Below are positions 1,379-62,954 of a stretch of 64,000 nt of DNA, one piece after another. A program made the position numbers and the translations under genes. Each line of letters begins with the position of its first letter. Position 1 is the stretch's first letter. Under the pieces are notes generated by a model, which searched no databases, had not been told where the DNA came from, and saw only the letters and a list, made by a program, of their open reading frames with translations. Source of the stretch: Antedon mediterranea (lineage: Eukaryota > Animalia > Echinodermata). The stretch covers positions 23,453,365 to 23,517,364 of the forward strand of contig NC_092678.1 in NCBI RefSeq assembly GCF_964355755.1. The letters are read 5' to 3'.

Positions 1379-4300
1379 TTAAAAGCCTTTAACAGCTTTA
1401 ACAATACAGGATGCACTGATCCCGAAGCGCTCAAGCAGAACCGTTGGTGGACCACTGTAGGGAATGTTCTGAACAGCCAATCGTCGTACTTTTACTCCTT
1501 CCTCAGACAGCGCAGCAGACACAGCCTCACCAAGTCCACCTATAAAACAAAAATCAGTTTAATACCATATTTTACATAATTATTGAATCACTGTTATGTT
1601 ATATTTTTTTTAATTATTTCATAAGCATCCAACAGCGAGCACAAAATCGTCAATTATTTAACATTTAATAATGTATCATGAGTGGAGTTACAAGTCACTA
1701 GTTACAACCCTGGCACAAGGTCAGAATTGAACCCTGGACCTTGGGATTGGAAGGCAATCATGTTAACCCTCATGTTCATGTTCTCACCTTCAGGGTAATG
1801 GTCTTCAACAGTGAGCACTTTGTTTCCACTGGCTTTGGCACAAGTGAGAAGTGTAGCCTTATCAATTGGTTTCACAGTGAAAGGATCAACCACACACACG
1901 TTGATACCCTCTGCAGCTAGAGTTACCGCAGCCTTCTCGGCTTCTGGAAGTGTTACTCCTGCAGCTACGATGGTCACCTGATCTTTATCACTTTGACGAC
2001 GAACCTACAGAAAAAAACAGATTATTACAAGAATTACTTGTTGACTTCATAAATAACAAAGCTCCCTTTTAACTAGTGAGTAGACCACATAGACATCTTG
2101 AATACTAGTGGGAACCAAGCTTTAACTACCAAATTTCAAATGTAGGATAGTAACTGGTACCAAGTATCAGTGAGTTGTATGAAACTTGATAAGAAGTTCT
2201 ATACAGTTGCTATGGCAACACAAGGGAAGTCTTTGATCTCGATAGTAACGCAAGTCAAAGAGGCAAAGTGTTGCGGAGTAAAAACAAACAAAATCTAACA
2301 AAAATGTTTAACAATTGGCATATTTAACTGGGCTGTTTTGAGCAGATAACCAGCTGATGTAGCATCTCAATTTTGCATGTATTGCAAAATATAAAGAGAG
2401 CATTGAAAGCCAGGAATATTATACCTTAGCCTTTCCAATCTTGAACTCCTCAGTGTTTCCATAAACCACTGGAGTGGTCGGCCTAGACGCACGAATAAAG
2501 CACATCCCTGGAGTGTTAGCTGCAAGTTCTACTGCTCTCTCCATGGCAACCGCATCACTTGGGTAGAATACTGTGCAGCCTGGAATTGCTCTGAACATGG
2601 ATAGATCTTCCAGTGCCATTTGAGATGGACCATCTTCACCTGATAAATAAAATACAGATGAATATCATTAAAGAACAAATAAAATTGTAGGCCTCAATTT
2701 TGTTATATCTGTAGAATTGGCTATCCACATGTGCAGATCACAGCATGTGACAATGTGCAGATCACAGCATGGGACAATGTGCTGTTAGCATACCCCGTAA
2801 CAGTCCTAGATTTTTTTTCATTATTCTGGAGAAACATTTATAGTATAACAAATCTAATTCACTCTTTTCAAAGCAATAATATTTATTTTATCTATTCCTC
2901 GCCAAATAAGGGCGTGTCTCTCCAATAAAATGTCTTACCAATGGAAATGCCGACATGGGATCCCATGAAGTTGACGTTGGACTGCGAGACAGCACCCATT
3001 CTAATCTGATCGTAAGCACGCGACAAGAAACATGCAAAAGTACTAGCAAATGCGACTGTTCGGTTGCGACATGCAGCTCCCATTGCAACTCCAACAAGAT
3101 TTTGTTCGGCGATGAAACACTCGATGAATCGGTCGGGGAATGCATCCCTGAATTTTATCGAGTAGGTGGAATTTTTCATGTCTCCATCAATGGCAACAAC
3201 ATGTTTGTTATCCTTGCCGATCTTTACAAGAGCTGTTCCGTAGGCAACACGAGTTGCAACCTATAAAACAATTGAGTAAATTACAAATCTGAACAGTCGT
3301 ACATGTTAACTTAAAATTAACAATCAAATCTCAAATGTAGGATAGCAATTGATACCAAATTTCGGCGAGTTGTGCGAAAATTGACTAGAAGTTGCATCCA
3401 GTTGCTATGGCAACACAAGGGAAGTCTTTGATCTTGATTGACAGGACAAGTCAAAGAGGCAAAGTGTTGCGGGAAAAAAAATAAATCAAACACAAAAATG
3501 TTTTTTTCTTTCAAAACCGGACACCTTGTGTCAAATGTATTTTAAAAAGAAGGTGCCTTGTAGTAGTTAGAAATAATATAAATAATAAATGGAGAAATTT
3601 TTACCATATCTCCCAATGAATAGCTTGGAGCCTCAAACAACTTGACTTCAGAGATATTAACTGCTGGAGCATCATCAACAGGTACTGGAGGAGTCAAGCT
3701 GTGTTTGTTGTTTTTGATCAATTTTGAGATGGCATCAATAGCACCCTCAGCTTTAGCACCAAGAGCTTTACCGTGCCAATTTTCAAGGTTTTCTACATCT
3801 GTGAAACGTAAAAGAAATGCTCATTTACTTTCTTGAAAAATCCAAATCATTGTAAAAAATTATTCAAATCATTTTAAAAAAAATGATTTACATCGAAAAA
3901 GAAAATTGTTTCTATACCTGGACAACCTTTTCCTTTGAAGGTCTTTGCCAGAATAGCTGTTGGTTTACCAGTAGTGACCGAAGCCTCATGGAATACCTTA
4001 CAAAGATCTTCAACATTGTGTCCATCAACCACAATGGCATTCCAACTATAAATAAAAATAACAATTTTAACCACTATAATGTCATTGATTATGACAACTA
4101 TGATGTCATCATTATTGATGATAAAAACTATGTTGTCATTATTGATGACAACAACTATTATGTCATCATCATTGATGACAACTATTATGTCATATCTTTG
4201 ATGACAACTATGATGTCATCAACTATGATGATTTTACTTATATGTTTATGATTACAATGTAGGATAGCAATTGATATCAAATTTCGGTGAGTTGTGCGAA

Positions 4301-7300
4301 AATTGACTAGAAGTTGCATCCAGTTGCTATGGCAACACAAGGGAAGTCTTTGATCTTGATTGGTGGACAAGGCAAAGAGGCAAAGTGTTGCGGATAAACA
4401 AAAAAAAACAACAAGAATTTATAATTATAATATAAAATACTATAACCTCAAAAAACCATATTTTTAACTAAAACTTGGCATCAGACCAAGATTAGGAATA
4501 TTCGCATAATGTAGCAGGTGCGAAATTTAAATAAATTTAATAAAATAGTTAATAAAATATACTCGGTACTTACCCAAAAGCATCAAATCGTTTCTGGTAA
4601 GTGTCCATCTGATGTCCGAGGGCTGTGGGTTGACTTTGTCCGAGTCTGTTTGCATCCAAGATGAGCACCAGATTGTCCAGTTTGTATTCACTGGCAAATG
4701 CGCATGCTTCCCAAATGGATCCTTCGGCACTTTCACCATCACCGATGAGGCAGAAGACACGGTAGCTATCAAAGATGAAAATAATGAGGTGAACAAAGAG
4801 TTGTAGCGACTACTTCTGCTTTACCACCAGAAATAAGGATCGTTAAAATGTTGTGTGTGTGTAGTGTAAAACTAGTTTGATAGTGTAGATAGAGCTTTAG
4901 ATAAAATATATTCTCTCTCCCTTCAGACTGAACATTAAGAGGTGTGATCTCCTCACCTTGCTTTGTCAAAGTATTTGCCAGTGTATGCCATACCACATGC
5001 ATTGCTAAGACCCTGGCCGAGTGAACCAGTGGCAACATCTACGAAATCCAGTCTCTAAAATAAACCAATAATTATATAATGTATTAAAAACCTATGTTGA
5101 AAGAGATGTCACTTCACACTTTATATTCTTCAGATAGCTGTGATGTATAGTAGTTAGAGAAAACCAATATTGAGGATAGGTGGTACATTTAGCAATGCAT
5201 TGCTAGGCCTAGTAAAGTTAGTATGGAGATTTCCTAGATTCTAGGTATTAGTAAGGGGCCTGATAGCCTAGTCTAACTGTAAACCCCTGCTAGGCCTAGT
5301 AAAGTTAGTAGTTTAAACAGAGGTTGAATAAAGGTTTCTTAGGTAGATTTCTAAGTATCACAAAGGGCCTCGTCATTGTCCACCATTGCACCAACGATAT
5401 ATCTTGCTTACCGGTGTTGGATGTCCTTCAAATGTATTGTCAATCTTGCGAAGTTCCATCAACTTCTGCTCTGGGTATCCGCCATTTTCTACCCAACAGG
5501 CGTACAGGATAGGAGCAGCGTGGCCCTAAAATTAAACAACAAAAGCTTAATTAATGTTAATTTATAACATGGATTAGATGACATGAATATTTAGTAACTT
5601 TTGTAGGATAGTAACTTTTGTAGGATAGTAACTGGTACCAAGTATCAGTGAGTTGTGTGAAACTTGATAAGAAGTTGTATCCAGTTGCTATGGCAACACA
5701 AGGGAAGTCTTTGATATCGATAGTAACGCAAGTCAAAGAGGCAAAGTGTTGCGGAGTACAAACAAATGTTTAAAAAATGTTTAGTATAAATTGATTAGAC
5801 ATGTTAATGTTTAGTATAAATTGATTAGACATATTAATGTTTAGTATAAATTGATTAGACATATTAATCTTTGCATTGTCACACCTATATAGTTTGACAG
5901 ATCTTTAGGAAGGATGATGCTCACCTTTGAGAGGACAAACCTATCGCTGTTGCAGTCTCTCTGGTCATTGACCTTGTACTTCATGACGTGGAAGAACAAG
6001 ACTGACATGATGTCGGCCATACTGCAACATGATGTTGGATGTCTAACAAAACGAAAGAAACATTGTCACCACTCACTGGTTAGGATACACATTGCAATAG
6101 TATTACATTTGTTTTATTCAAATATGTTGGATTTTTCAATTGAAGGAAGATCAGTGAATTGAACATTTAATGAGTGAGTGGGAGTGTGGGGGAGGGGATG
6201 GGTGCTACAGTATAATATCAGTCAGGGAGAAATGGAATAAGGCTTCCTACTTTCTAGGAGTTTTATCAGATAATCCATATTGTTTTGACAACTCTTGTAA
6301 CATGACCAAAGTGCTGATTTTGCCATTTTCCATTAACTCCGATATGAAAATATTTTTTGGGACAGTGTAATAAATAACTTTTTTATTCAATACAACTTTG
6401 ATTTAAATCTACAACAGTATTCTAAAAATAAAATTGCTCTTTTGTAAGTTATTCACTGAAAATTTAACAAGCCAGATTTTACAATTAAATAAATAACGCC
6501 GGCATTAGGCAACAGCACAGTAGGTTGGATTAGCAAACAATACCGTCAACTAAATTCCTCGATTCAGGATATCTAGTGTACTTTATTTCCATTTTAGTTC
6601 CTGGTTCGTAAACAATACAACATGCAAGTCATCCGAGGTGTGAAAGAAAGGGAAGTAATTTTGTTATTCCCCTAAAAATGTAAAACTATTTAATTTATAC
6701 ATGTTTGTAAAGTTGACAAAAAACACCACCATGTAATATTATTAAAGTCTGGACTACTGAACATTTTTTAACAATTAAACAAGCCCTAATTGTGTAGACT
6801 TTGAGAAGTAGTTAATTAAATCATTAGTTAAGCTCTATCTCCACTATCGAACTTTATGTGACAACAAAATTGATGTGCCCATATATGGACATCATATAAC
6901 TACCATGGGCACATCACACTTTTTTTGTCAAACTAGTTTGATAGTGTAGACAGAGCTTTAAAATGGTTATTGGAAAAAAACATTGCAAGATTAAACAGCG
7001 AATGAATGGAGGCCTAAGCGGAAGTGATACGGAAACAGAACCAGATTCATGTTGGTTTGGGTTTATAGTGAATATCATTGGTCCAAATTAAGCTACCCAG
7101 CTCACCTCATCCATGTACCTTTATTTATCAATTCAGATTTAACAAAAGAACATTGTAAGAAATTAATAGTAAAAAGAACAGAGTAGATAATATCTGATGT
7201 TTAAACCAAATTTCCTTCTTATTCATTCTTGTACAATGGGGTTGGTGTAACCTCTATTCACAGGGACCTGGCCTTCATAAATAAAGCTGAAATCAACTCA

Positions 7301-9709
7301 GTTTGTGATACACATGATTGGTTTTCAAGATAATTCGTAAGCAGTATCAATAAAGTGTATTGTTCAAGTTTGAAACTTATTATTCAGCATGTTTGTGCAT
7401 TCAATGACCTGTATGTGAGGAAGAGGTATGATAATAATGCAGTGTAGTTAGATAGGCTAGGCTATAGATTTTTAGCAGCAAAAAGCAGAAACCCAAGTGT
7501 TTTAAATTTCAGTAACAAATTGAACATTTAATGTAGTCAATGACACGACCATACATAGGCCTATATCATAATTAATAATATCACAATCTGTGGAAATAGG
7601 AAGTAACTGATGTAGAACAAACCAAGCATTAGTTTAAAAAAAAAATTATTTTTAATCTATCTAATTAATCTTATGTACTACACAGCATTATTAACCAAAT
7701 ATGATGCGAATATATATAATATTATTATTAATAATTAATATCCTTTTGTTGCAACGCAACATATAGGCCTAGCTCAGACCTGGCTGGTCACAAATACTAA
7801 GTTAGGCTCAGGGGTGGCGCCAGGATCTTCCCGACGCGGGGGCTACATTCCCCGACGAGGGGAATATGCGAGCGAAGCGAGCATCACTAGGCTGGGGGCC
7901 CGGGGGCCGCCAAGGGCCCCTGTGGGGGTCCAGGGGCGATGCCCCCGGAAGCAACGCGTTCTAGCGTCATTTGAGGTCATTTTAATCAGATTTAGGGTAG
8001 CCATTTTTTCCATTTTTTATAATGCATAAATAAACTACTGCGTGCAAAAAAACGATGCGCGATGACTGTTTCATTCAATCCATATTTTTCAATTTAAAAA
8101 ATAAAAGTTCAAAAAAAATTTAGAAAAATAGAGTTGGAGGTCCCGGAAATTGGACTTATTTATACTTCAAAACATGAAACAAAATATATAAGTCCCTATC
8201 ATGGTTGTGACTGAGCTAAGAAATGTTTGAAAAATAGAGATGTTAGGTCCCGGAAAATGCACTTCTTGTACTTCGAAATATGACCAGCTTTATTGTTGGG
8301 GCTGAGCTAAGAAAATTTTTAAAACTAGAGCTGCAGGTCTTCAAAAAATTGCATTTTATACTTTGGAAACATCAGGCCTAGAGGCTTAAAAAAACGCAAG
8401 CGTAGACCTTTTTCAGTCGGGGAAATAAGTTTATTCCTCCCAAGTGTATGCGTGCGTACCATCTGGACTTCCGAGTGGTGAGAAATTCATGACATACACA
8501 GGACATTGAAAATGTAATAACTTAGCTATAATAAGATGTTGGCTAAGCGAAAATTAAGTTGCATGTTTTTTTGTTTAGTAATGGATGAAAAATTTATTTC
8601 AGGTGCCCCACGGTACAGAAGGTTACTTGTAAATAAAAAAAATTGGTGAACATACGAACAATTAACATAATTCGTTTTTGCTGTAGTGTAGCGTACGTCG
8701 ACGCAGTACACGACGTAACCGTCAGTAAACTTCGCCTGGAAAATAACTACAGTACACATTTTGGTCGCTGGATGGAACATGATATCACGCGTCTCGACAA
8801 CGTTGAACGATTGGTACAAATGGATACCGCCAGACAAGTGCGAACCTAGCTATTGTTTTCTATAGTAAGTTAGATCGCTGGCAATAATGAATGCATATAA
8901 AGTGCATAATATCACTCTGACGTACTCTCACGGTCAATGAAACGTCGCGGTTTTCTAGGCGCTGAAGCTAGCTACGAAGTGAACGCGAACCCTTTTTACT
9001 GTATATTATATTCCCCGACAAAAAGTACCCGTGTTCCCTTCGGTAACCGTCGGTAAACTTCGCCTGGAAAATAACTACATTACACATTTTGGTACCTGGA
9101 TGGAACTTGATATCACGCGTCTCACCCAACGTTGAACGATTCGTACAAAGGGATACCGCCAGACAAGTGCGTACCTAGCTAATGTTTAGTAGTAAGTTAG
9201 ATCGCTGGCCATAAATGAATGCATAAAAGTGCATATTAGCCCTCTGACGTACTCTCACGGTCAATGGAACGTCGTGGTTTTCTAGGCGCTGAAGCTATGA
9301 AGTGAACGCGAACGTTTTTTACTGTATATTATATTCCTCGACAAAAAGTACCCGTGTTCCCCGACGAGGGGGCTAGAGCCCCAGTAGCCCCCCCGCTGGC
9401 GCCACCACTGGTTAGGCTACCAATATATAAAGCATAATCTGGCCCTCCCTCACGATCACTACTACTAGTCTACTAGCAGCTTAGACTAGGGGCCTATGTT
9501 TGAAAAACCACGTGTATGCATACCCTAACATTCAAATAAATCCATGCACCCACCCAGAGTACCCGGCGTACAAAAAAGACAAAACCGGCCCGAGAAACTT
9601 ACCCAGAACCTGCCGCACTGGTTGCTTTTATACTCAAAATTCGGAGTTTATTACCAATATCTTTTAGTGCTTGAATCTTCTCATTGTCTGGTTTATGATA
9701 TTTCGACAT
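1379..9709 (-). CDS. TKT: Transketolase, 11 coding exons, about 621 aa
   Basis: GT-AG exons at 9603-9709 ([36 protein letters not shown]), 5925-6042 (HPTSCCS...DRFVLSK), 5412-5525 (GHAAPILYA), 4957-5054, 4574-4765 ([11 protein letters not shown]-binding motif), 3918-4045, 3605-3798, 2939-3260 ([10 protein letters not shown]), 2425-2639 ([11 protein letters not shown]), 1788-2004 and 1379-1539. Phases are consistent and the total of 1866 nt is in frame. The protein closely resembles animal TKT. Confidence 0.97.
1712..1772 (-). mobile_element. Degenerate tRNA-derived SINE head fragment
   Basis: Minus strand reads ...ATTGCCTTCCAATCCCAAGGTCCAGGGTTCAATTCTG (B-box-like). A similar sequence lies at about 53635-53705 (+). 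Confidence 0.45.
2138..2277 (-). ncRNA. Intronic box H/ACA snoRNA candidate, copy A (TKT intron 9)
   Basis: Host-sense layout: hairpin (GCAACAC/GTGTTGC and TCTTTGA/TCAAAGA stems), H box ATAGCA, second hairpin, then ACA+TTT. About 140 nt. Pocket TTTGCC/CTTCCCTT is antisense to LSU rRNA AAGGGAAG..GGCAAA. Confidence 0.85.
3333..3472 (-). ncRNA. Intronic box H/ACA snoRNA candidate, copy B (TKT intron 7)
   Basis: Same architecture as copy A. The apical loop has diverged while the stems, pocket, H box and ACA box are retained. Confidence 0.85.
4070..4230. repeat. Degenerate minisatellite (ATGACAACTATGATGTCATCATTATTG-like)
   Basis: About 6 imperfect units of about 27-30 bp. Confidence 0.75.
4255..4394 (-). 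ncRNA. Intronic box H/ACA snoRNA candidate, copy C (TKT intron 5)
   Basis: Closest to copy B. H box ATAGCA, terminal ACA+3 nt and an identical first pocket. Confidence 0.83.
5616..5755 (-). ncRNA. Intronic box H/ACA snoRNA candidate, copy D (TKT intron 2)
   Basis: Near-identical to copy A. The 3' end (AGTTACTATCCTACAAA) is locally duplicated. Confidence 0.85.
5777..5869. repeat. 30-bp tandem repeat x3
   Basis: AATGTTTAGTATAAATTGATTAGACATRTT repeated three times. Confidence 0.85.
6831..6958. mobile_element. Harbinger/Tourist-like MITE (AGCTCTGTCTACACTATCAAACT TIR family), representative copy
   Basis: TIRs AGCTCT(G)TC(T)ACACTATC / GATAGTGTAGACAGAGCT with TAA/TTA flanks. Further copies or fragments lie at about 4868-4897, 13222-13323, 14665-14786, 15656-15777, 15800-15962, 18490-18665, 20158-20311, 31680-31842, 45576-45725, 53072-53195, 58979-59115, 59410-59505 and 59996-60121. 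Confidence 0.85.
7809..9410. mobile_element. Non-autonomous hAT-type DNA transposon in TKT intron 1
   Basis: TIRs CAGGGGTGGCGCCAG / CTGGCGCCACCACTG with a perfect 8-bp TSD GTTAGGCT (7801-7808 and 9411-9418). It contains an internal tandem duplication of about 325 bp (about 8715-9037 / 9044-9360) and no transposase ORF. Confidence 0.9.
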
Positions 9710-14452: not shown

Positions 14453-17400
14453 TTATAGACTAGTTGCACTGTGCATAGCATCTCTCCATCTACAAAAAAT
14501 AATTAAAATATTATATTAACAACAATAGAATGGGAAATTGATGATTTTAAAAGGCAATGCGTACAGTATATATACCCAAATTATGTAAGCCACAGATTTT
14601 TTACCGTTTTCATAGTAAATATTTTAAATTTGAGGTTATGCAATGTATACATGTATTGCTATTAAAATTGATGTGACCAAAACATTTGTTGTTCCCATAT
14701 GGATATGAAGATGTCATATCACTACCATATTTGGGCACAACAACTTTTTGTTTGTCAAACTAGTTTGTTAGTTTAGACAGAGCTTTCTAAAATATCTTGC
14801 TGATGCTATAACGAATCAAAAACATTATTTTATTAAAAAAAAACATTTTTTATAAAAACTTACTTTTCAGTCGCAACTTTACTCTCGGTTTTGAACATTC
14901 GAATCTGTCGGCCTTGATGGAATAACTGTAGTACAAGTCCAGGCTCTACACCTTCATAATACTAGAAACAACAAAATAAAAAAGTTTAGAAGCGAAAACA
15001 TATTTAATGCAGTAAAGTACAATAGAGAAGCAGAATGAAAACGTGTATTTTGCCTTGAAATAATTATACTAATTGTTCAATATATTAATTATCATTTTGA
15101 TATCATCATTGATTTTGTATCTGTGTGTTTTCTATATATTTATTTTAAGAACGCACCGTGTATGAGCGTGTGCCACTGTTGTAAAGGTGTAGCTTCAATA
15201 ATCTTAGATCCATAAGTTTCCACTAAGTTACATACTCATAAATATGAAATATTAGATACTTCATTCAATCTTTTATTTCGGAAACTCTGGTCCAGAGAAA
15301 GTAAAAAATTACATATAAATGAAATAAAATAAACAAGACTGGTGATAAATACAATCTGTAATACGTACCTCTTTGATGACTTGAATGTCGTATCCTAACA
15401 GCGGCATACTCTCCAGCGCGGCAACGTCTTCGCTAGCCTTGTACGTGTACAGTACTTTATCTTTTATCACGTACCAATACTTCTTCCATTGTTTTTTAGC
15501 TCCTTTCTGGAACAGATAGCCACTCATTGTAATGTTGCACTCATTAGCAGCAACCTGGCGATAACAAAAACAAGATTAAAAGTTAAAAAAAATTATTATT
15601 ACTACATAAACTTTCTAACCCCAAGAACCAGTAGGGCTAGAACAGGCACACCATAAGCCTTGTCCACACTATCAAACTTTATGTGACAACAAATGTGATG
15701 TGTTTATATATGGTAGTAATCATTATCATATCACATTTTTTTGACACATAAAGTCTGATAGTGTAGACAGAGCTTTAGATAGTGGTACACATTCCATGAC
15801 ACTAACACTATCAAACTAGTTTGACAAAAAAAAAGGGGATGTGATGCCCAAATAGTAAGTAGTAATATTCCCAAATATGGTAGTGATATGACATCATCAT
15901 ATCCATATATTGGCACAACAATTTTTTTGTCACATAAAGTTTGATCGTGTAGACAAGACTTTACACTCACTCACCAAACCTTATGTCACAAAAAAATCTG
16001 ATGTGCCCATATATGGCCACGATGATGTCATATCACTACCATATTTGGGCACAACACATTTTTTCGTCACATAAAATTGATATTGACAGAACATTATACT
16101 GAAAGAAAATTCATGGCATGAATACATTTAACACACCTTTTAAACACAACATTTAAATCATGTATAGAATGTGTTTACCTCTTTGAGTGCAGATGGTCTT
16201 GACATCTTGCGGTTTGCTTTTAAGTTTTTCTTTTTTGGTACATGCTTTTTCTTTTTTATTGTTTTATTGATAACTTCATCTTCTTTATCTTCCTCATCGG
16301 GGCACTCTGTAAATAAAATGAAACAAATTAATTGGGATGATGATGATGGTAAAGTTGTGAATTTATCTCTTACTGATACTATTTTTTTTTCTCAAGAAAC
16401 AAGCCCTTCCCATGATACATTAGATGTTTGTTTACAATAATTATGGTTAATTTTAGGTAAATAAAAGAAAAATTAACTAAATTAATTGGGATGGAAAGAA
16501 AGAAATCTAACCTTTTTGAAGAACAGAGTAACACTCGTCACAACATCTAGCCACTTTGCTTGAGAGGTATGACAGAGGTAGCTTGTTATCTGAGCAATTC
16601 CCACATACAACCTGTAAGAAATAAAAATAAAGTTATAATCTTATCAAAAAAACTACATTCTCATCATCTAATTCTCAGTGCTGTATCTCCATACATGACA
16701 ACATTTTCTCGTGTCATAGGCAAATGCCATAATACAGTGTCACATATGTTCACAAGTGGTGCCTGTATTACAGAATGGTAGGTGAATAGATAGGATCTGA
16801 TTCATGCTTTCACATGTGATGCTAAATCATGGAATTTGCCTATGATAGTAGACAAATAATTTCATTTCAGAAACATGACAAATGAATTTAAGCAGGCGTA
16901 CCTTTCCACAGGCCCTACAGTGGTGCCTCCTCCATGTGATGGTGAACTCACAGGTACAGATCATACACATCGTCACACGCCCATCTGGAATCCACACCGG
17001 TGCCTTACGGCCAAGACTCATCAAATTGTTCTCGGTCATCTAAACAAAAATAACAAAATTATTCAATAATTATACTATAATATAGTTGTGAAAATATATG
17101 AAACATAGGATTTGTACCCAAGACTCTGGAATTAGCGGTCAAGCATATTAAGCTATTGTGCCACTACACTACTTCTAAATCTCAATATATATCTTGTAGA
17201 TAGACTCTTTAAATTAGAAAGGGCAAGAAATGAATAACTTGACTCCAGCACACTGCAAAGATTACACTTATCTTCCTGGTGACTTTGTTGTAAATAATGC
17301 ATTTCACGAGATAACCGGTAATGTGAGTGTACCTTACCAGTATACCGCCTGAAATACACTATTAACAACAAACATTATAGCGACAGACAACTTCATCAGC

Positions 17401-20400
17401 TCAGCAGAAATTCCAATTTTACATCTTAGCTCCGAAACTTATAAACAATCATTTAACTATATAGTGACAGACCTTTTGATAAGGTCACAGGCTTCTATAG
17501 GAAGAACCAAGGACTGGAACCCAGGACGTAGTAGTTAGTAAGCAAGTTGAGATTGTACTTACAACTGCATTAGGTCCCATCAGGTTGAATGAACTCTTTT
17601 TCTGAGCATAGTCTGTGATAGCTGTCATAAGGGCTTCTATCCATTCATCTCTTAGCTCTGGTGTACTGAAAAAAAAAACAACATCAATTTATAGAAACTT
17701 TATTTACTCGTATATATACCATTCTGAGATGAGTAGTAGTAATTAGTACAGTCTTTATTTTTAATTCATTTATAAGTAATTTTACTTTCTACATATTCCG
17801 AAATAAAAGATTGAATGAATATATTGATTATTGAACTTTATTTTATAACTTCCTGAATTATTATATTTGCTTTAAAAAGAAAACTAATATTACATTGATA
17901 CATACCTCGCTGAGAGGGTGAACGACCTCTGTACGCTAATGATACTAAACTCATTTTGGAAGTCTTCTTGAACAGGTCTGCTGACCTAAAAAAAAAATAT
18001 AAAACCACGAAATTATATTTTTAGTATTAATATTAGCATTATAGATAAAAATTAAAAAAAAATCCACCGTGATCACAAGACTAAAAAAAATGGTTCTTAT
18101 GGATGTTGCCATTTGATTTTCTTTTATTTGATTTCCACAAATAATACATAATATATTTCTTTATAAATAATTAGTTAGTATAAATTAGTATATATTAGTA
18201 TAAATGTGAATGGTGGTCAAAATAAGTAGACTTTAAGCAGACACCACCATTAGCATTTGAGAGTGGGCCAAAAGCACCTTAAATTGAAAGAAAGTTGATG
18301 ACCGATTGGCTAGCTAGTCTAATTAAGTCTTACCTTCATTCCTGCTAAAGACAACTCATTGTTTAGTTTGAACTGGCCACTTGGATATGGTGTAGTATAC
18401 AATAAACAGTCACTCATCTGTAAACAAATATTACCATATTAAAAACTTATTTTGTTGATTAATAATTAAAATTATAGTATATGTATAAAACTCTGTCTAC
18501 ACTATTAAACTAGTTTGACAAAATTTGTGTACCAAAATATGGTCGTGATATGCCTAAATATGTTAGTTATATGCCCAAATATGGTAGGGGTATGACATCA
18601 TCATGTTCATATATGGGTACATCACATTCAGTTTTATATAAAGTTTGATGGCGTAGACAGAGCTAAAGCCAAAGTAAGTCTTAAATTCTGGCTTTTCAGA
18701 AAATTTAGACTTTTGGCCATCTTTATTTGGAAACTTGGGTGTGTAGAGATTTGAAATAAGAAAAACTTACTAAGTAGAACCTTCTCGGCTGCATCACCTT
18801 TCGCGACAGTTTTTGTAGAATTCCTTCCTTTTTGTAGATCTAAAGAAAACAAATTATTAATAAATAAATTATTATTACAATTTGGATATTTTTAATTAAA
18901 TACTTTTGAATAAAAGAAGTTAAGTATCTAGACAAGTGCGTTGGTTTCAGTATCTATGGCGGTATGACCTTTACCCTACATCTTATTTCCTGCTAGCTGC
19001 CATCGTCGGTGATTATTTTATAAGTATATGCAAGGTATTAGTAGTAGCTACTTCCTTTAGTTTACCCTCTGGGCCAGAAACAGGAAAACACAAAGCATGG
19101 CTGGGTATAGCGTGAATCATACCCAACGTTAACATGTTCGAAATCTAATCAATTAAGTAATTCACACTTATTTCAAAATGTTCACGCAAATAAATAAAAT
19201 CCATTGATTACTGTAAAGACACAGAGCACATTAAACATTATAATTTGAACTTTGAACTCACCCTTCCTGGTTTCACTATCTCATGATTTCCCATAAGGCT
19301 GTGCTGTATTTGAAGTAACTTTTCAAAATTGTCCTATAAGAGAAATACAATTTATGAATATATTAAGTTATATGTTTCGAGCATTTCGATTTTTAGGTGA
19401 AAGCTGATTGGTTTTTTGCCTTTTTATTAACCAGAGCAGCTGAACACCTTGAGTATAAATATGTATAACAATGTCATCATAATGTAGTTAGTATTGTGAA
19501 GAATTAGTCATTTGAAATACTTACACCTTGTCTCATAGTCTCATTTGCATGGTTGGCTACCTCACTCACAATTTTAAGTGCGGCTGTAAAACAATAAATT
19601 AAATCAATACATTTTAAAAATAAAAGGACAAACTAGGTATACTGAAGTTGTATATTTAATTTATGGTATATGAAAGTAGAACTCGTATAAGAGGATATTT
19701 AAGGGATACAAGAGAGTGTCCTCTTAATAGAGATGTCTCCTAAATAGTGTAGTGTTATTCATTGCCACTTATTTGTGTCACAGAAAAGTGTCCTCTTAAT
19801 AGAGATGTCTCCTAAATAGTGTAGTGTTATTCATTGCCACTTATTTGTGTCACAGAAAAGTGTCCTCTTAATAGGGGTGTCTCCTAAATAGTGTAGTGTT
19901 AAACTATTGCCACTTATTCGTGTCACAGAAAGGTGTCCTCTTAATAGAGATGTCTCCTAAATAGTGTAGTGTTAAACCATTGCCACTTATTTGTGTCACA
20001 GAAAGGTATCCTCTTAATAGAGATGTCTCCTAAATAGTGTAGTGTTATTCATTGCCACTTATTTGTGTCACAGAAAAGTGTCCTCTTAATAGGGGTGTCT
20101 TAAAGGAATTCTGCTATTGTTGTAGATTGATAACAAACGAAGTAGTTTTTTCTTTAAAGCTCTGTTTACACTATCAAACTAGTTTAACAAAAAGTGTGAT
20201 GTGCTCGAATATGGTAGAGATATGCCCAAATATGGCAGTAATATGACATTATCATTTCCATATAATGGGCACATCACATTTTGTTGTCACATGATAGTGT
20301 AGACAGAGCTTTAGTTTTTCAGCATCTAAATTTGAATCAGTAACCTTACCTTCTGTATCAGCAAAGTCATTGCTGGCTGGGTTCAATTTCTTGAGGTAGT

Positions 20401-23400
20401 CTGCAAAGAGAAAAATTCAACTTAGTTAAAATATAATCATTATGAAAGTTTACACTGTATTTTAAGTTTAATAAAAGGTTGGCGAGTGGGGTAAAAATAA
20501 CTACATCCAACAGACATACTATATAGTGTACTGCACACACACACACATATATATATATGTATACAGCATTATCACATAATAAGTAATGTTACAAAGTTTT
20601 GTGCGTCAAATCTTGCACAAAGATTGCACATACCTGTTAGAAGCAACTTATACTGTGGTATCCTCTGTATCGGTTTCAGCATGTAGTGCTTGACAGCAAG
20701 ATGCATACAACGTGGGCTAGCCTGTAACAAAACACTATTATTAATAATTCACATCATAATTTATGTAGCCTGTATGCTTTAATGCCTAAACACCAGCAGA
20801 CCTTGACTACTCTTTGAACTAGGATGCTTAGGTCTTGGAGGCATATATCAAAGACTGAGGCTTAAGAAACCTTTAAAAATGTAAGTGTATGATTAAGTGG
20901 ATTAACAGTTTAAAAAGAAATTCATATCTGGGTCTAGCAAGTCCTAGGGCTTGAAATAAACAAAGAGGATTTACTAAGAAAAATGGGTAACTTGCATTAT
21001 AAACTTTTTTCAAAAATGTTTTTACAATGTTATATGAAAGAAAAAAAGAAAGATGCTTTATTTTAAACCTAGTTAAAATTTGCTTGATTCGATTTTTTGA
21101 CTATTCTTAAAGTGACTCATGTGTATTGTAAAAAATGGGAGATTGAGGATTGGTTTTAACATGAAAAATGGCAGAAAATAGTAGGGATAATTTGTTTGCC
21201 AATTGTAGAAGTAAAATATTTATAAATGTTATATCATAATAAATTATGATAATAATATCTATGACTATCTTACCTCAAAATCCCTGACAACTTGCCCGAA
21301 GTAAGAATACTTATTACACGCTTCGTCAAAGATTGTACCAAGTCTCTCAAAGTCGCGGAAGTAAGATGTATAAAGCTTCAGATAAGGACCCTTCTTGAGA
21401 AAGATATCGGCTAATTTTGGATTCTCATCCCTGAAAAATTGATCACAAAGAATATTAATAATTCAGAAACTAATAATAAATTCATAATTATTTATTTAAA
21501 CATAATGTGAGCTGTTAAACATTTTTTGAAATATGGATATTATAAACATATGGCTTTTTTCCACAGGTTGTTTCCAAACCTACATGTATTTCACATAACT
21601 AAATACATAACTTTAGTATTAAGATGTTTTTTACCATTCTTCAATTCTTTTGTCGAGATCTTCCAGTAATGTTTCATTAAACATCTGAAGCTGCGGAAGC
21701 TGTCCAAGAATTTGATCAAGAATTTTTTCGTCAATCACCGGTCTGGACGTGTTGAAGCTGGCGTGCTCTATAGCAGATCGGAAATCCTTCAAAAACAAAT
21801 TTATATTAAAATTATGAAATATATTTACTATGTGTTCTACTGTATGTACAATTAATAATTTTCTTCATATTCCCCAATTTTGTCCAAGTACTCTCACTTG
21901 CACTGATAAAGAGCTAGTGTTGTCCTAAAGCTCTGCTAATTTTTCTGGCTTTATTACTTTATCGTTTTTATTTAGCTTTTTGCTTATTTTATTTTGTATC
22001 TCCATTGAGACCAAACCATTGATCATACCCATAGCATTGTAATTTTTCAGTAATTTGCCTTTTAATGAAAATAATAATTGTATATATATAGGAAAGTCTT
22101 TTTCCTATATTTATGACATAAATAATGGCAAATTTGCGTGCATTCCAATGTTTGGATTATATACACTATACTTTCATATCCATATTACATTGCAATATAA
22201 TTGTAAACAAAGTTTAAGTAATAAAGAATACTGTGCACATTAAATAAGTAATAAATAGAATCAGTATCTGCGATATCCGAATTGATAAAATATAATATTT
22301 ACCTCATTTAATAACTTCAAGACATCAACAAATCTGCAGAATAGTAAGAAATATAACTGTGAATATTTTTATGTAAAATATAATAATGTTTTAGTAAAAT
22401 GTTATTTATTAGTCACTGTTACATAACATTGATAAGATACCACCTAATAAACTAATGCTGGTAGTAAAAAGGATGCTTTAAACTTTAATATTGATTTTTT
22501 TATATTAAACTCGGAAATTGTTTTTAGTTTTTATAGTGTTTGCTGTTAAAAATAGAAATAAAGTATCTACTTAGTAACATAAGCTAATAATAGGAAAAAT
22601 TATATATATCACATATTTTATAGTATATTCATTATTATGTGAAATTTTTTTTTTTTTTGCTGAAAAATGTTGTCAGATAAAAGATGAAAACACTTACACT
22701 CTTTCCGAATCACGAATTTCGTTTGCGACAAGTAAAACTTTGCGTTTGTGTTCTGGCGTCATTTCTACATCCTCTCGCGGCATTTGTTTACCCGATGACG
22801 TCAGTTCACTGATTGGTTCATAATTTCTGTAGCCTTCGCTTTCTTCGCCCGACAACGATCCACCTTCTTCATCTTCGTCGCCGCTACTTTCTGTGAAGTC
22901 TGCACATCCACACTTTCCATCTTCATTCGGGGTGTGACTGCATGCTCTGTAAGTAAAAAAAGTTCATTTTTATTAAGGTATCTTTATTACAACTCTTTAC
23001 TTGTTTATCTTTTAACTTATATATATTGTATGTCATTGTATTTTTATGTGAGCAATTGTGCCTGTCATGAATTTCCGCAAGGACCGAATAAATCTGAATC
23101 TGTTAGATATAGCTATGTGATCAAGTAAAACTACGGTGTTTACTGCATGCTTTATATAAAGTAAACAAAACTATCATATTATATTTGTTGGGAAGCTTAG
23201 ATATAATATCAAGCCAATTTTTGTTGTTGACATTTTTACACAAAATGTTTAGATTTAGTAACTGCATGTTTGTTTTCTTAAAATGTATTCTTTTAAAGAT
23301 GATAAAAAACCATTATGTTAATCACAGATAACATTTATTTGGTTTAAATTATAGTCACCAGGGAAAGAGATTAGTAAATTCAATGGATTTGGATGATATA

Positions 23401-26400
23401 TGTATGGGCTAATCCATACGGTGTGTCTAATCTTTGTACTTTTAGAACTAAACTTAAATTATGAAGTCTCAACTTAAGTCTCCATGCTTAAACATAACAA
23501 AGACATTAATTACAATGTCTAACAAACCAGGATTAAATAAATGCTTAAACATTCAACAGCTGGTCAGCACTGACCAGAGCTGACCACTTGAAAACAATTT
23601 AAGCCCAGCACCAGTCTTTACTATTCAAGGTCTTTTAATTTATTTTCTAATCTATTTAGAATTGATTACATAATGTTACATAATACTGCAACAGATTCTG
23701 AGCATATTTACTATTCATTGATATCACAATGCTATTCAAGGCTATATCTTTGTTAGCTGTTGAATAGCTTTGAATTCTGGGTGGTGGTGGTGGTGAAACT
23801 AAAGACAAATGGCTGTAAGCAATTACTCTGTTACTAATTAATATTTGTAATTAGGTGTATAAACTATTCTAATTCAGAGACTGAAATGATTTTAAAGACA
23901 ATTTATTTATAATAAAGCTGTGATTACTGTATAATTAAGCTACTGGATAAAACACTTAACTTTTTAAATAACGGGCACGATTAGCTAATTTAAAAGTATA
24001 TTTCTTCTGAATGTGTTTTTTAAGTTTAAAAAATGTGGGACCTTTCAGACCTAACAAAAAAAGTTTTGGGAATGTTTTTTAGATTTCAGAAAAAAAATTT
24101 AATATATAAGAAAATGGAGGACAAAATACATTTTAAAATTGTAAATATAATATCACAAAAAAAAAAATGTGACTACAAAGAATATTATTACTACCTTCTC
24201 CACTCGGCAATCCCTCCACTCACTGCCAATGGCCAATCACTTTTGAATAACTTACTGATTAAATACAAATACTAATATATACTATCTTACTATGCATTAC
24301 ACCTTATTATAGTAGAGAGTGTTTTTTAAATGTCAAAGAAGTTAATTTATATATGTTTTTAGTTTAAAATTTAATAATGATTTAACTAAGTAACAGATAT
24401 AATTTTGATATATTAGGTTTCTTTATAAAAACTAATACAATCCAATAAAATGGTTAGTACACTCTGCTTACACTTGGTTGGGTTAAACAATGTAAAAACA
24501 TTCTACAAATTCTTAACTACTTATTAAGTCCTACAACTTTTTTAAATACAAACTATTACAATAAAAACCAACTGACCTCCTGACCAAGGATCTCCTGACA
24601 AATGCTTAGCTGAATGCTAACCCTGTTAATGCAGCCGACTCCAGCTCTTAAATGATACTCTACAATCCTGCCTGCCAGCATGGCCAAGCTGACTGATTAT
24701 GTAATGTTACATAACACACAAACAGGATGGATGATAATCAGTTGTTACCACTGATTACCATTCATGCATACATAAGTGTATAATTTATTCATGGATTCTA
24801 CTGTGTATTTTACTCTGGGTTGTACCATTATATTTAAAATGTGCCAATAGGATTGTGATTGTGTGGGAGGGTTAGGGCATTCAACATTACCATAACAAAA
24901 AGATAAAATCAAATAATGTAAATAACAATACAGTCAATTCTACCAGATAAGATAAGATAAATTTATTGAACAGACTTTCCTTTAAAAATCAAAAAATTAA
25001 ATAAAACAATTTCCAAATACTAGACTTTCGTGAAAACCAGACATACTGTACTTGGCCAGTCTAAAGTTGTCCGGTATTGGGAGAGTTGACAACACAATCT
25101 ATAGCACCAAATCTAATTCACTTAAACTACTTATGATGATTTTGTGAGAATAATAAATTGAATTGAATTAAAAAGAAATGCAATCATAAAATGCAAAGAG
25201 TATGTTATCTAAAAAATGATAATTACTGTCATTATTGTTAATTATTGTTCTAATAGTTAGTAATTGTCTACAGAGATACGTCAATCATTATATTGTACAT
25301 TCACTTTTATTTTCTTAAATTGAGCTGTAATGCATTTCAATATCAAAATTATAGATAGAGTAAAATTTGAGTACAAACTCTATGGTGATTAAAGTACAAA
25401 CAACTTGCTTGCTTCTTGTCTATGTGTGGTGCATAGAGAGGTATACATCTAATATGAAAGTAAATAATACACAAATATGCCTAGAGCTGAGAATGAAGTT
25501 TCACATAAGCTTAGTATGGTATTTCAAAAAACACTAGCCAACATTGTTGAGAATTCTAATTCAAACTTCAAGCTGCTACCAAAGTCAGCGATATCTATGC
25601 CCATGAAACCAACATTATTTTAAGGTAAGCAACTAAGCCTGAATGAGAAGTCTAACTCTGTGAAATTACACTGACGACAATCATGAATTGTATAGACATA
25701 TTGCTAATATCCCTAGCACTTCACAACATAGATACAATATTTGAACCATAGAGTAATCTTTAATCCATGTTTGAAACCAACCTGGTGACTGCAACCAACA
25801 TTTTTAAAGATATTATGCAATTTCCCTAAAAATGTGATGATGTTTTCACTCACCCAAAAACACTAAGTAGAGACTCACTAAAGTCCTCCAGACACAAACT
25901 TACTGTCCAATCATCCAACATTGTTTAACAATTTTTAGAATAATATTTATGAGATAGTGTAAATTCTTCCTTTTCTATTGAAACTGAAACTAGTACTTCA
26001 ATGTATAAATATAACACTTGATAAATAAATTTGGTTGTTAATATATATAACTACTTTGATATTCATGAATTTTACTGATGTTAAATTAAAATTATTGTAT
26101 AATTGAATATCGTATATCCTCTGGTGTAATCCCACCACAACCCTAGAACATTGGGCCGACTTTGGGGGCGGGGGGAATATACCCAGGGAAACATTTTTTT
26201 TCCAAATACTGTATCCTTTATTGATGTTAGTCAACTCATTTAATTTCGTTCCATTGCACTATTTTGAAACATTTTATGAATAAAAAGTGAGCTAGAAAAA
26301 CAGAAATTGTGATTTGGTTAAAAAAATAAATAAATTACCTTGGCACAGAATAGATATTCAACTTTGACATGTCCTCATATCCGTCCTGTTGCTCCGCATC

Positions 26401-29400
26401 CAATTGGTCACCAGTCAACGTGTCAGGTTTATCATCCGTCATTGGTACAGAACGTGTTCCAAGAACAGGTGAAACATGTTTGGGTTTCCTGTTTACATCT
26501 GGTGACGACGCGGCCATTTGATTAACGTAAATTTTTTCATCAACGTTTGTGTCCAAAGGTTTAATATCAGGCAACACGTAATCATCACTCAAACCGCTGT
26601 TTCTTTGTCCGTCTGCGGAGTTCCGATTCTCATTAGAAAGAAGACTCCCTCTACCGGAACTGCCGCTGTTATCGCGACTTAGTGGAGACTTCAACTGTTC
26701 AACAGTTGAATTTTCAAGTACTTCCAAGTTTTTGCTTTCAGTTACTTCTGATCCGGCAGAAGAGTCTTGTATTTCCACTGATGTTCTTGCAGTCATTTTT
26801 GAGGAATCTATTACACCAGATGGAAAAGAGAATGTATGCATGTCCGAAAGAACCATATGTGGTGTCGAAGGTTGTCTGGAGTCGGTTGCTGCTTCCTCAG
26901 ATTTCTTACTTTTTTGTGTACCTTTGCGATTCTTATCAACCACTGCATACGTGGTGTTTGCAACTAAAGAATATGATTTATCTTTTGCCAAACTGGATGC
27001 ATCACATGATTTACTCTTTGATGGTGGGGGAGGGGCTGGTCGCCGAGGTTTAGGTAACGACCCTTGGCTATGTTGTTTTATAGTCCTTTTACTGGAATCA
27101 GATTTTCCATTTATTTCATTCTTACTAGTTAAGTTTTCCAAAGTTGTTGAGGCATCTTGCTGTACTCTTATCTCAGGACTAGATGGAACATTAAATTTCT
27201 CTGTTGAAGTCCTTTCTTCAGATTTGCTCCGACTCTTTCGAGGGGGCGCTATAAGCGTTGGCGACGACTCTGATTCAATATGTTTACCTAGTAACTCTGC
27301 AGGAACAACTGGGTTAATAGTTTTGGAACGTCCCTTTTTATTTTTTCGTTTTGGAGGTTTTGGTTTTAGAGGAGGTTTTGAATTCTCCAACGGTGTTGAT
27401 AATTCTGCATCAAGAGCAGAATTTGCAGAAATTGCTCTTTGTCTTTTGAAAGATTCACTGATAGTCTTTGACTTCTTCTTTTTTACCGAAACAATTTTTT
27501 CTTTTCGTCTAGCAACCGGGCTGTTGGAAGATGTTCGGTTGGACGATCTAGCTGATTCAGGCGATGAAATGTCTTTACCGTATTTATCAACCTTTTTCTG
27601 GCGTCGAACAGGAGTTGGTCGGATATTACTATAAGGTCTTTCAGGATCAACTACGCAGTTATGATTATTTTCCAGCATTTGTGTATCTGTTGGTAGAGTA
27701 TGCAAGTTTTCAACTTGCTTTAATTTCTTTTGTGTGACTTTAATTTGCAACATTTGATTATCACATTTCAACGATTCTGAACGTCCCATTTGGTTCTGCT
27801 GTTTCGCTGTTGACATTTGTTTGTCACATGGTAGTGAATCCGAGTGTCTCACTTTATTTTGTTTCTTTTCTGGAAGTTTCGGACTAGAAGTTTTTGGTTT
27901 GGTAACATTTTTCTTTTTTTCTTTTGCTTTGGCAGCTTTCTCTTCAAAACTTTTAGTTCGACGTGGAGGAGGAACCGGAAGTTTATTGGACGGATCTTGT
28001 GAGACACGCTTGGAAGACGAACATTGGTTTGCAAACTCACATCCTGGTTCTAAATTCTCATAGACATTGTCGTCATCAAGACTAAAATCAACATTTGCAT
28101 AAGGGCGTTCATCACACCTGTGTACAGCGCAGGTGTCCATATCAGTAACATTACCATATGCATGATGGTCATCACACCTGTGTACAGTACAGGTGTGCAT
28201 ATCGGTAACATTACCGTATGCATGATGTTCATCACACCTGCGTACAGCAGCGCAGGTGTTCATATCGGTAACATTTCCATATGCATGTTCTGATAGTTCA
28301 ATTTTTGGAAAACAATCATTTTTCCCATCATTATTTATGTCCTCGCTTTTTCTCTCACTATCTATTGCATGAGGTTCAACCCCATTCTTTCCTTTATCAA
28401 CTTTTTTCTTTCCATCTATCTCTTCTATTTCTGCTATAATCACTGTATTTCTTCCTTCATTTTTCAAGTTGGTAAAATCCGTCGTGTCGGAAGATGATTC
28501 AATGAACATCGACTGTGTTGTACGTTCATCGTTGTCGCCCGCGACCCGTGCCAAGGTTGACGGATTAGAGTAATTTACAGGAGTTGTTTTGAAGTCTGCG
28601 GAGCGTATTCGATTTAGAATAAACTTTGAAATTGTTGGTTTTGGTTTTATTGGTGGTTTTGTCTGATTCACTGAAACATCTAAAAAGAATAATAAAACAG
28701 TTAGTTTAGCAAATGTAACACTATCTAAAGACAGGCCAGTGGAAGGAAAATAGTATTTTAAATTGGAAAAAGTTGTTAATAGTAGAAAACAAAAACAAAA
28801 AATCAAATTGAAGAGGAAAAATAGTTATAGAAGGGAACTGAAGAAGATTAAGATCATTATTATTATGGTTTGCAGGGCGAAATCAAATGTTATATCAAGT
28901 TTGCGTCGTGAGGTCAATTTCCCGATTGATCGTAATCAAAACGGTACTGGGTATGGTCTACTAGTTTTCCTGCTCCCAACCAGTACATCCATTCATAGAA
29001 GCTTTGATGAAGTAAGCCTACCTGGTGGTAACTATAGAACGGTTCCGAGATAAGTTTCTCAACAGTTTTTTTCAGAACTAATATACGTGGTGTACCGCAA
29101 ACTTGATATCAACATATTATGAATTTATGCTAAATCCTCAATTAATTTGCCTATTCATTAAAATTGGGTTTTAATAATACATTTTTTATACAATTCATTA
29201 AATGGACCTCAATTTCTAAACATTCTTTCTATACATCAGAGGTTTTTTTTAATCAGAAAACAAATATTTGTGATCAATACACACAAGCAGGAACCAATTT
29301 CAAAATCCTTACTATAATGCATGACAGAATAAATAAGTAAAAGTTACATAACACTACAATCAAAATAAGCTTCATTTCAATGCCCATCTGCTGTGAACAA

Positions 29401-50402: not shown

Positions 50403-50427
50403 GTACTCGCTTCGGCAGTACATATAT

Positions 50428-50459
<32 letters not shown>

Positions 50460-50509
50460 GGCCCCTGCGCAAGGATGACACGCAAAATCGTGAAGCGTTC
50501 CATATTTTT
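50403..50509 (+). ncRNA. U6: U6 spliceosomal snRNA
   Basis: 107 nt full length, GTACTCGCTTCGGCAGTACATAT...ACAGAGAAGATTAGC...AAGCGTTCCATATTTTT. The ACAGAGA box and AGC triad are intact, the 5' stem GTACT/AGTAC pairs, there is a TATA-like run about 30 nt upstream, and it ends in T5. Confidence 0.97.
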
Positions 50510-51179: not shown

Positions 51180-62778
<11,599 letters not shown>

Positions 62779-62954
62779 GCCTTAGATTGTTCCAAGAAGC
62801 CAGGCCAGTCCATTCTTTACTTTGTTCACTGTTTTCTGTTTTTTTTAAAAATTCCATCATTTTCGAATGGAAATAAAATAATGTTGTAAATTGTCTTTTA
62901 AAAGTTTTATTGTTATTAACTGAACCAAAAAGATGTGTTCAGTGATTGATCTTA

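What the first reader, a model, noticed from the sequence alone, without database searches (positions are those of the whole stretch)
2138..5755. Transketolase hosts a four-copy H/ACA snoRNA family that guides a conserved LSU rRNA uridine
Seen: a unit of about 140 nt occurs once per intron in four TKT introns (9, 7, 5 and 2), always sense to the host. It has a hairpin-ANANNA(ATAGCA)-hairpin-ACA+3 layout. Apical loops diverge into two subtypes (A/D and B/C), whereas the internal-loop strands TTTGCC and CTTCCCTT are invariant. Established: H/ACA pockets pair on both sides of an unpaired UN, 14-16 nt from the H box, and eukaryotic LSU rRNA contains GUAAGGGAAGUCGGCAA. Here CTTCCCTT pairs with AAGGGAAG, TTTGCC pairs with GGCAAA, UC stays unpaired and the H box is 16 nt away. 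Inference: this is a functional pseudouridylation guide, amplified intron to intron in a metabolic gene that I do not know as a snoRNA host, aimed at a site for which I cannot recall a human or yeast guide. The target of the second pocket (CAACTTCT / CCAGTTAC, 14 nt from ACA) is unassigned.
Basis: partly seen in the sequence, partly recalled or inferred. Interest (0 to 1): 0.85.

Follow-up and report, generated by a model that had tools for sequence, protein, structure and literature searches.

The report
Five-copy intronic pseudouridine guide RNA family
Four introns of a feather-star transketolase gene and one intron of a neighbouring cohesin gene each carry a copy of what is likely an ordinary small guide RNA, predicted to modify one ribosomal RNA uridine that is already known to be modified in fruit fly and Arabidopsis but not in humans.

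Summary
Four 142-143-nt copies lie one per intron (2, 5, 7, 9) of a crinoid transketolase gene, sense to the host. Each folds as hairpin, H box, hairpin, ACA. The invariant 5' pocket pairs 8+6 bp around one LSU rRNA uridine, 16 nt from the H box; 0 of 2000 shuffled pockets did as well. The novelty claim mostly falls. The target is human U2852, which is Drosophila 28S-2149. Fly has an annotated, expressed guide of that name, and published sequencing maps show this pseudouridine in fly and Arabidopsis; the human map does not. It is 96% identical to two TKT copies over its 5' half but has a different 3' hairpin and ACA, so it looks mosaic. Read data suggest about five copies, also present in a related organism, which argues against a transposon. 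There is no Rfam hit, and no target was found for the second pocket. The mature RNA, the crinoid's own 28S and the modification itself were not seen. The scan holds no look-alike sequence, but noted similar multi-intron H/ACA paralogs in other genomes. New member of a known kind.

The parts
1380..9709 (-). Transketolase host gene, 11 coding exons (9709-9602, 6041-5924, 5524-5412, 5054-4957, 4765-4574, 4045-3918, 3798-3603, 3258-2937, 2637-2423, 2002-1785, 1536-1380)
   Evidence: tblastn of P0001, Pfam, splice joints in run X5
2138..2279 (-). Copy A, intron 9. Pocket strands 2267-2262 and 2229-2222, H box 2213-2208, ACA 2143-2141. One lower-stem pair of the 3' hairpin is broken
3333..3475 (-). 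Copy B, intron 7. Pocket 3463-3458 and 3424-3417, H box 3408-3403, ACA 3338-3336
4255..4396 (-). Copy C, intron 5. Pocket 4384-4379 and 4346-4339, H box 4330-4325, ACA 4260-4258
5616..5757 (-). Copy D, intron 2. Pocket 5745-5740 and 5707-5700, H box 5691-5686, ACA 5621-5619. A 17-nt tandem duplication of the 3' end repeats the ACA just downstream
61951..62087 (+). A/D-type 5' guide hairpin (pocket 61963-61968 and 62001-62008), H box ATAGTA 62017-62022, a different rod-like 3' hairpin, ACA 62082-62084
   Evidence: blastn/nhmmer, fold z -3.8 whole and -3.5 for the 3' hairpin, identity step, chance test
61720..62365 (+). Intron of SMC1 (cohesin subunit) that hosts copy E, sense to the host
   Evidence: GT..AG ends and reading frames; next exon matches SMC1A at E 3e-25

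Best explanation
These are five intron-borne copies of what is likely a box H/ACA snoRNA, whose invariant 5' pocket is predicted to guide pseudouridylation of the large-subunit rRNA uridine equivalent to human U2852 and Drosophila 28S-2149. Shown: the copies, their intronic sense placement, the fold, the boxes, the 14-bp complementarity to eukaryotic LSU sequences, and the identity of the site with the fly and Arabidopsis pseudouridine. Inferred from standard H/ACA biology: each RNA is trimmed out of the spliced intron and bound by dyskerin, NOP10, NHP2 and GAR1. CUUCCCUU then pairs with AAGGGAAG and UUUGCC with GGCAAA, leaving UC unpaired 16 nt from the H box. The 3' hairpin is probably structural. 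Inferred history: duplication from intron to intron inside TKT, plus one copy in SMC1 whose 5' half was later overwritten by, or exchanged with, an A/D-type copy.
For: Pocket 0 of 14 columns variable, H box 0 of 6, 5' stems 3 of 36, apical loop 7 of 10 among A-D. The best match in 6.7 kb of stand-in rRNA plus U6 is 14 Watson-Crick pairs at this U, and 0 of 2000 shuffled pockets reach that. The one base left free by the search pattern is the pairing A in 36 of 36 contigs; Rfam calls eukaryotic LSU in 3 of 3 of these loci tested. Fly old 2134 = new 2204 = human 2837, and counting 15 on in a published alignment lands on the target U, which is fly old 2149. Fly snoRNA:Psi28S-2149 is annotated, 144 nt, H/ACA and expressed. 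Fly Psi-seq at this U: stop ratio 0.40-0.61 versus 0.004-0.007 mock, 7 of 7 wild-type libraries. Arabidopsis 25S Psi1897 is the same U. The same B- and C-type loop letters and the SMC1 copy occur in two runs of a related organism, with no listed change over 61943-62035 against 11 substitutions in 196 adjoining bases (P about 0.005 with boundaries chosen after the fact). None of 119 unrelated metagenome matches to the pocket pattern has both stems (at most 5 closing pairs, against 14 here).
Against: The mature RNA was not seen, and the crinoid's own 28S was not obtained, so the pairing rests on other eukaryotes. Covariation is thin: 1 of 31 pairs has a double change among A-D. Part of the invariance may come from recent duplication or gene conversion rather than selection. 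No Rfam family matches. The 3' pocket varies (5 of 18 columns) and has no good target. The fly Psi-seq table calls very many sites (288 reproducible in 28S) and does not tag this one among the classical 57, although its signal has the top rank.
Confidence: 0.9

Rival explanations
1. Only some copies work. The others, most likely A (broken lower-stem pair) or E (foreign 3' hairpin), are redundant or decaying snoRNA pseudogenes kept alike by gene conversion. This is compatible with the main reading.
For: A has a broken pair in the 3' lower stem. E's 3' hairpin shows 4 substitutions and a 4-nt deletion in the related organism, and two substitutions and a 2-nt insertion in a run of the same organism. 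E shares even the apical loop with A, which points to sequence transfer.
Against: All five keep the pocket, H box and ACA. E's 3' hairpin, lower stem and ACA arise in 38 of 20000 random joins. Its listed changes spare the lower stem and ACA, and the one in the upper stem turns U-A into U-G.
Confidence: 0.3
2. The unit is a small non-autonomous transposon or SINE that happens to resemble rRNA.
For: It is repeated, about 140 nt long and found at two loci 56 kb apart.
Against: 5 of 5 copies are intronic and sense. The flanks show no terminal inverted repeats, target-site duplications or 3' A tails. Summed contig depth over the loop columns is about 4-7 times single-copy in three runs, while true repeats in the same introns reach 20,000 to 1.8 million against a base near 270; the tool warns that depth is not a copy number. 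The 14-bp pocket geometry is unlikely by chance.
Confidence: 0.03
3. The 3' pocket of the TKT copies is a second working guide, for an rRNA or snRNA site that my stand-in sequences lacked.
For: It has pocket geometry, 14 nt from ACA, and the three A/D versus B/C changes on its 3' strand are all transitions that could keep pairing by wobble. A weak 7+3 to 7+4 bp match with three wobbles to a conserved 18S stretch appears in 2 loci for copy D.
Against: Best scores were 0 to 8 on the stand-in set, within the shuffled range. B/C can pair the two strands with each other. U1, U2, U4, U5 and crinoid rRNA were not available.
Confidence: 0.25

Closest known systems
Drosophila melanogaster snoRNA:Psi28S-2149 (FBgn0086664)
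   Same: H/ACA class, similar length (144 nt) and the same target uridine by numbering and alignment.
   Different: Listed as one gene in fly, five copies here. Its sequence and host gene were not seen, so common descent versus convergence is open.
Intron-encoded metazoan box H/ACA guide snoRNAs with cis- and trans-duplicated paralogs (PMC2653536, passages read)
   Same: Hairpin-hinge-hairpin-tail with H and ACA boxes. Paralogs sit in different introns of one host and in a second host, with guide and structure conserved. Recombination of guide functions between snoRNAs is described.
   Different: In chicken about 90% of H/ACA snoRNAs are singletons, so five copies is high. I found no report of transketolase as a host. 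Copy E shows a sharp half-and-half boundary within one genome.
Vertebrate SNORA49 (28S Psi2826/2830) and SNORD34 (Um2824)
   Same: They act on the same short LSU stretch, 9 to 15 nt upstream.
   Different: They target different nucleotides. The human map lists nothing at 2839 (2852 in the new numbering).

Membership tests
Box H/ACA snoRNA | Hairpin-hinge-hairpin-tail fold | tested here: met
   z -3.6 to -5.3 for 5 of 5 units
Box H/ACA snoRNA | H box ANANNA in the hinge | tested here: met
   ATAGCA in A-D, ATAGTA in E
Box H/ACA snoRNA | ACA directly after the 3' hairpin | tested here: met
   5 of 5 copies
Box H/ACA snoRNA | Mature RNA of about 140 nt ending 3 nt after ACA | not testable with these tools
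   Only assembled contigs were offered, which cannot show ends
Box H/ACA snoRNA | Bipartite pocket pairing on both sides of an unpaired UN, 14-16 nt from a box | tested here: met
   5' pocket 8+6 bp at 16 nt, 0 of 2000 shuffles, tested on other eukaryotes' rRNA
Box H/ACA snoRNA | Intronic and sense to a spliced host gene | tested here: met
Box H/ACA snoRNA | Dyskerin binding and pseudouridine at the target in this species | not testable with these tools
   Needs experiments; the modification is documented only in fly and Arabidopsis
Any Rfam 15 family | Match at gathering score or a low E-value | tested here: not met
   No match over any copy
Orthologue of Drosophila snoRNA:Psi28S-2149 | Same target nucleotide | tested here: met
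Orthologue of Drosophila snoRNA:Psi28S-2149 | Sequence homology or shared host gene | not testable with these tools
   The fly sequence and host were not in the papers reached; two original papers are not held
scaRNA | Conserved CAB box (ugAG, recalled consensus) in an apical loop | tested here: not met
   None conserved in the alignment, read by eye
MITE, SINE or snoRNA retroposon | Terminal inverted repeats, or target-site duplication with an A tail; high copy number; random orientation | tested here: not met
   Flanks, depth, 5 of 5 sense and intronic

The most novel reading that the evidence does not exclude
Copy E is a working mosaic snoRNA caught after a hairpin swap: a TKT A/D-type guide hairpin fitted onto an older paralog's 3' hairpin in an SMC1 intron and kept in two species. 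The family is the first deuterostome guide for an ancient LSU pseudouridine shared with flies and plants and lost on the way to humans.
Probability: 0.45. Interest if true: 0.4.

Novelty: new member of a known kind. Interest (0 to 1): 0.27.

Why it matters
It adds an uncatalogued snoRNA family in a phylum for which I found no snoRNA study. It extends a fly and plant rRNA pseudouridine to a deuterostome, which would place the loss on the line to humans. Five copies in two host genes, one of them a half-and-half mosaic, make a compact example of how guide hairpins spread and recombine. It does not reveal a new mechanism.

Tried and rejected
No whole genome is held, so no direct copy census was possible. 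No RNA holder was listed on record. Run X5 behaves as RNA but is contigs only: a 274-nt, depth-7 contig spans copy A and its flanks, against 2273 for the mRNA, which says nothing on the mature snoRNA. Rfam gave only chance hits on AT-rich or inverted repeats. The viral scan for the target motif gave 120 matches, 1 rRNA-like by eye. The 3' pocket scan in many registers found no conserved target; the 1800 nt of L156 used as LSU 3' part were not checked with Rfam. Rfam was run on 3 of 36 rDNA loci. Paper searches: '28S-2149' had 0 main texts; U2852 terms had 0; snoRNA with transketolase had 7, none on topic by title; crinoid terms had none with snoRNA among the 15 listed of 130. The Xenopus snoRNA paper shows no human-numbered 2839 site in its text or in the 2 of 7 supplement hits shown. 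A 2026 fly preprint and a mosquito paper do not mention the site in their text; preprint supplements are closed and may bear on it. That budding yeast lacks this pseudouridine (position 1903) is recalled, not checked.
Full report
Observation. The repeat finder gives one family of four 148-nt copies at 2141-5766. On the minus strand the units are A 2138-2279, B 3333-3475, C 4255-4396 and D 5616-5757. The host is transketolase: Pfam Transket_pyr, with the largest exon 100% identical to a protein named Antedon mediterranea transketolase-like. That protein maps to 11 coding exons, which puts the copies in introns 9, 7, 5 and 2, 74-209 nt from the 3' splice site. Contigs of run X5 join nine of these exon borders at canonical ends.

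Anatomy. Each unit folds into a 5' hairpin with 7-bp lower and upper stems around a 6+8 internal loop, then ATAGCA, a second hairpin and ACA. Z-scores against 300 shuffles are -3.6 to -5.3 for whole units. Among A-D, 0 of 14 pocket columns, 0 of 6 H-box columns and 3 of 36 stem columns of the 5' hairpin vary, against 7 of 10 in the apical loop; the 3' pocket varies at 5 of 18. Covariation is slight, with 1 of 31 pairs showing a double change. Rfam has no match over any copy.

Target. No crinoid rRNA was available, so I used eukaryotic rDNA contigs found as contaminants in prokaryotic assemblies. The pattern fixed the motif up to GGCAA; the next base, which the pocket also reads, is A in 36 of 36. 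Rfam confirmed eukaryotic LSU in 3 of 3 loci tested. On 6.7 kb of stand-in rRNA plus the window's U6, the best site is AAGGGAAG[UC]GGCAAA with 14 Watson-Crick pairs, and 0 of 2000 shuffled pockets reach it. The pocket starts 16 nt from the H box. The 3' pocket found no convincing target.

The site is known. Supplement rows of PMC11014333 equate Drosophila old 2134 with new 2204, human Um2837 (2824), yeast 1888 and Arabidopsis 1892. In the human-fly alignment in supplement 2 of PMC13228274 (part 2 of 3 read), the target U lies 15 nt further on, at fly 2219 (old 2149) and human 2852 (old 2839). The same paper's tables list snoRNA:Psi28S-2149, 144 nt, H/ACA, expressed in S2 cells. Table S3 of PMC9997552 (rows read) shows a strong CMC stop at this U in 7 of 7 wild-type fly libraries, ratio 0.40-0.61 against 0.004-0.007; that study calls many sites. 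Table S3 of PMC6793436 (rows read) lists the same U as Arabidopsis 25S Psi1897. The passage of the human table in PMC6182160 runs Um2824, Psi2826, Psi2830, Cm2848, with nothing at 2839. I could not see the fly guide's sequence or host gene, so orthology is untested.

A fifth copy. blastn and nhmmer of the window find one more match at 61946-62031. It lies in the intron 61720-62365 of SMC1, sense to it. Over alignment columns 3-81 it is 75 of 78 identical to A and to D, apical loop included; over columns 82-140 it is 19 of 59. Its own 3' part folds as a rod (z -3.5) closed by the shared TGGAT pairing with ATCCA, directly before ACA at 62082. Random window sequence joined behind the shared part gives such a stem, ACA and energy in 38 of 20000 trials. 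The simplest reading, which is inferred, is an older paralog whose 5' half was homogenised with an A/D copy.

Copy number and conservation. On 61860-62160, summed contig depth over the loop columns is 1221 in X1 (single contigs 258-301), 217 in X7 (30-41) and 932 in X8 (144-236), that is about 4-7 copies; beyond 62036 a single contig remains in X1. True repeats in TKT introns reach 20,000 to 1.8 million in X1. The tool warns that depth is not a copy number, so this is weak support. X7 and X8, a related organism about 4% apart in one exon-rich contig, carry the B- and C-type loop letters and copy E with its flanks. No change is listed over 61943-62035, while the adjoining 196 nt hold 11 substitutions and several gaps. 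The amplification therefore predates the split of the two organisms. The flanks show no A tail, target-site duplication or inverted ends; A, B and D share a short T-rich stretch upstream, which fits DNA-level copying.

Mechanism. Shown: copies, placement, fold, boxes, complementarity and equivalence of the site. Inferred from established H/ACA biology (recalled): release from the spliced intron, assembly with dyskerin, NOP10, NHP2 and GAR1, and isomerisation of the unpaired U. The 3' hairpin probably serves stability. Not shown: the mature RNA, the crinoid 28S sequence and the modification in this species.

Comparison and verdict. Passages of PMC2653536 describe cis-duplication into other introns of one host, trans-duplication into a new host, and recombination of guide functions. 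I found no paper on transketolase as a snoRNA host or on crinoid snoRNAs (listings only). The scan's notes hold no look-alike sequence but list similar multi-intron H/ACA paralogs in other genomes, which I did not test. This is a real, uncatalogued member of a well-known RNA class, aimed at a site already known in fly and Arabidopsis. The mosaic SMC1 copy is its most interesting feature. Interest 0.27.

Noticed in passing
window 50403-50509 (+): U6 snRNA gene, Rfam 118 bits.
   Followed up: no
window 5602-5635: A 17-nt tandem duplication of copy D's 3' end creates a second ACA box just downstream.
   Followed up: partly
window 1700-1768 and 4865-4901: High-copy repeats inside TKT introns 10 and 4, with very high contig depth and many loose ends; used as a contrast to the snoRNA copies.
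   Followed up: partly
window 4084-4243: Low-complexity ATGATGAC-type repeat next to copy C that draws spurious miRNA and C/D snoRNA hits in Rfam.
   Followed up: partly
window about 52900-62780 (+): SMC1 gene in many exons; several introns hold a repeat like the one at 4865-4901.
   Followed up: partly
window about 15300-28830 (-): Exons that look like a DH-PH-FYVE (FGD-type) protein with a long low-complexity exon at 26338-28824; the label is recalled from motifs and was not searched.
   Followed up: no
window 8715-9361: A tandem duplication of about 327 nt, 93-96% identical, in TKT intron 1.
   Followed up: no
window 52200-52450: Inverted-repeat array that gives many sub-threshold miRNA and snoRNA hits on both strands.
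   Followed up: no
L121-L156: At least 36 contigs in prokaryotic genome assemblies carry the eukaryotic LSU motif; the 3 tested are eukaryotic rDNA, so probably contaminants.
   Followed up: partly
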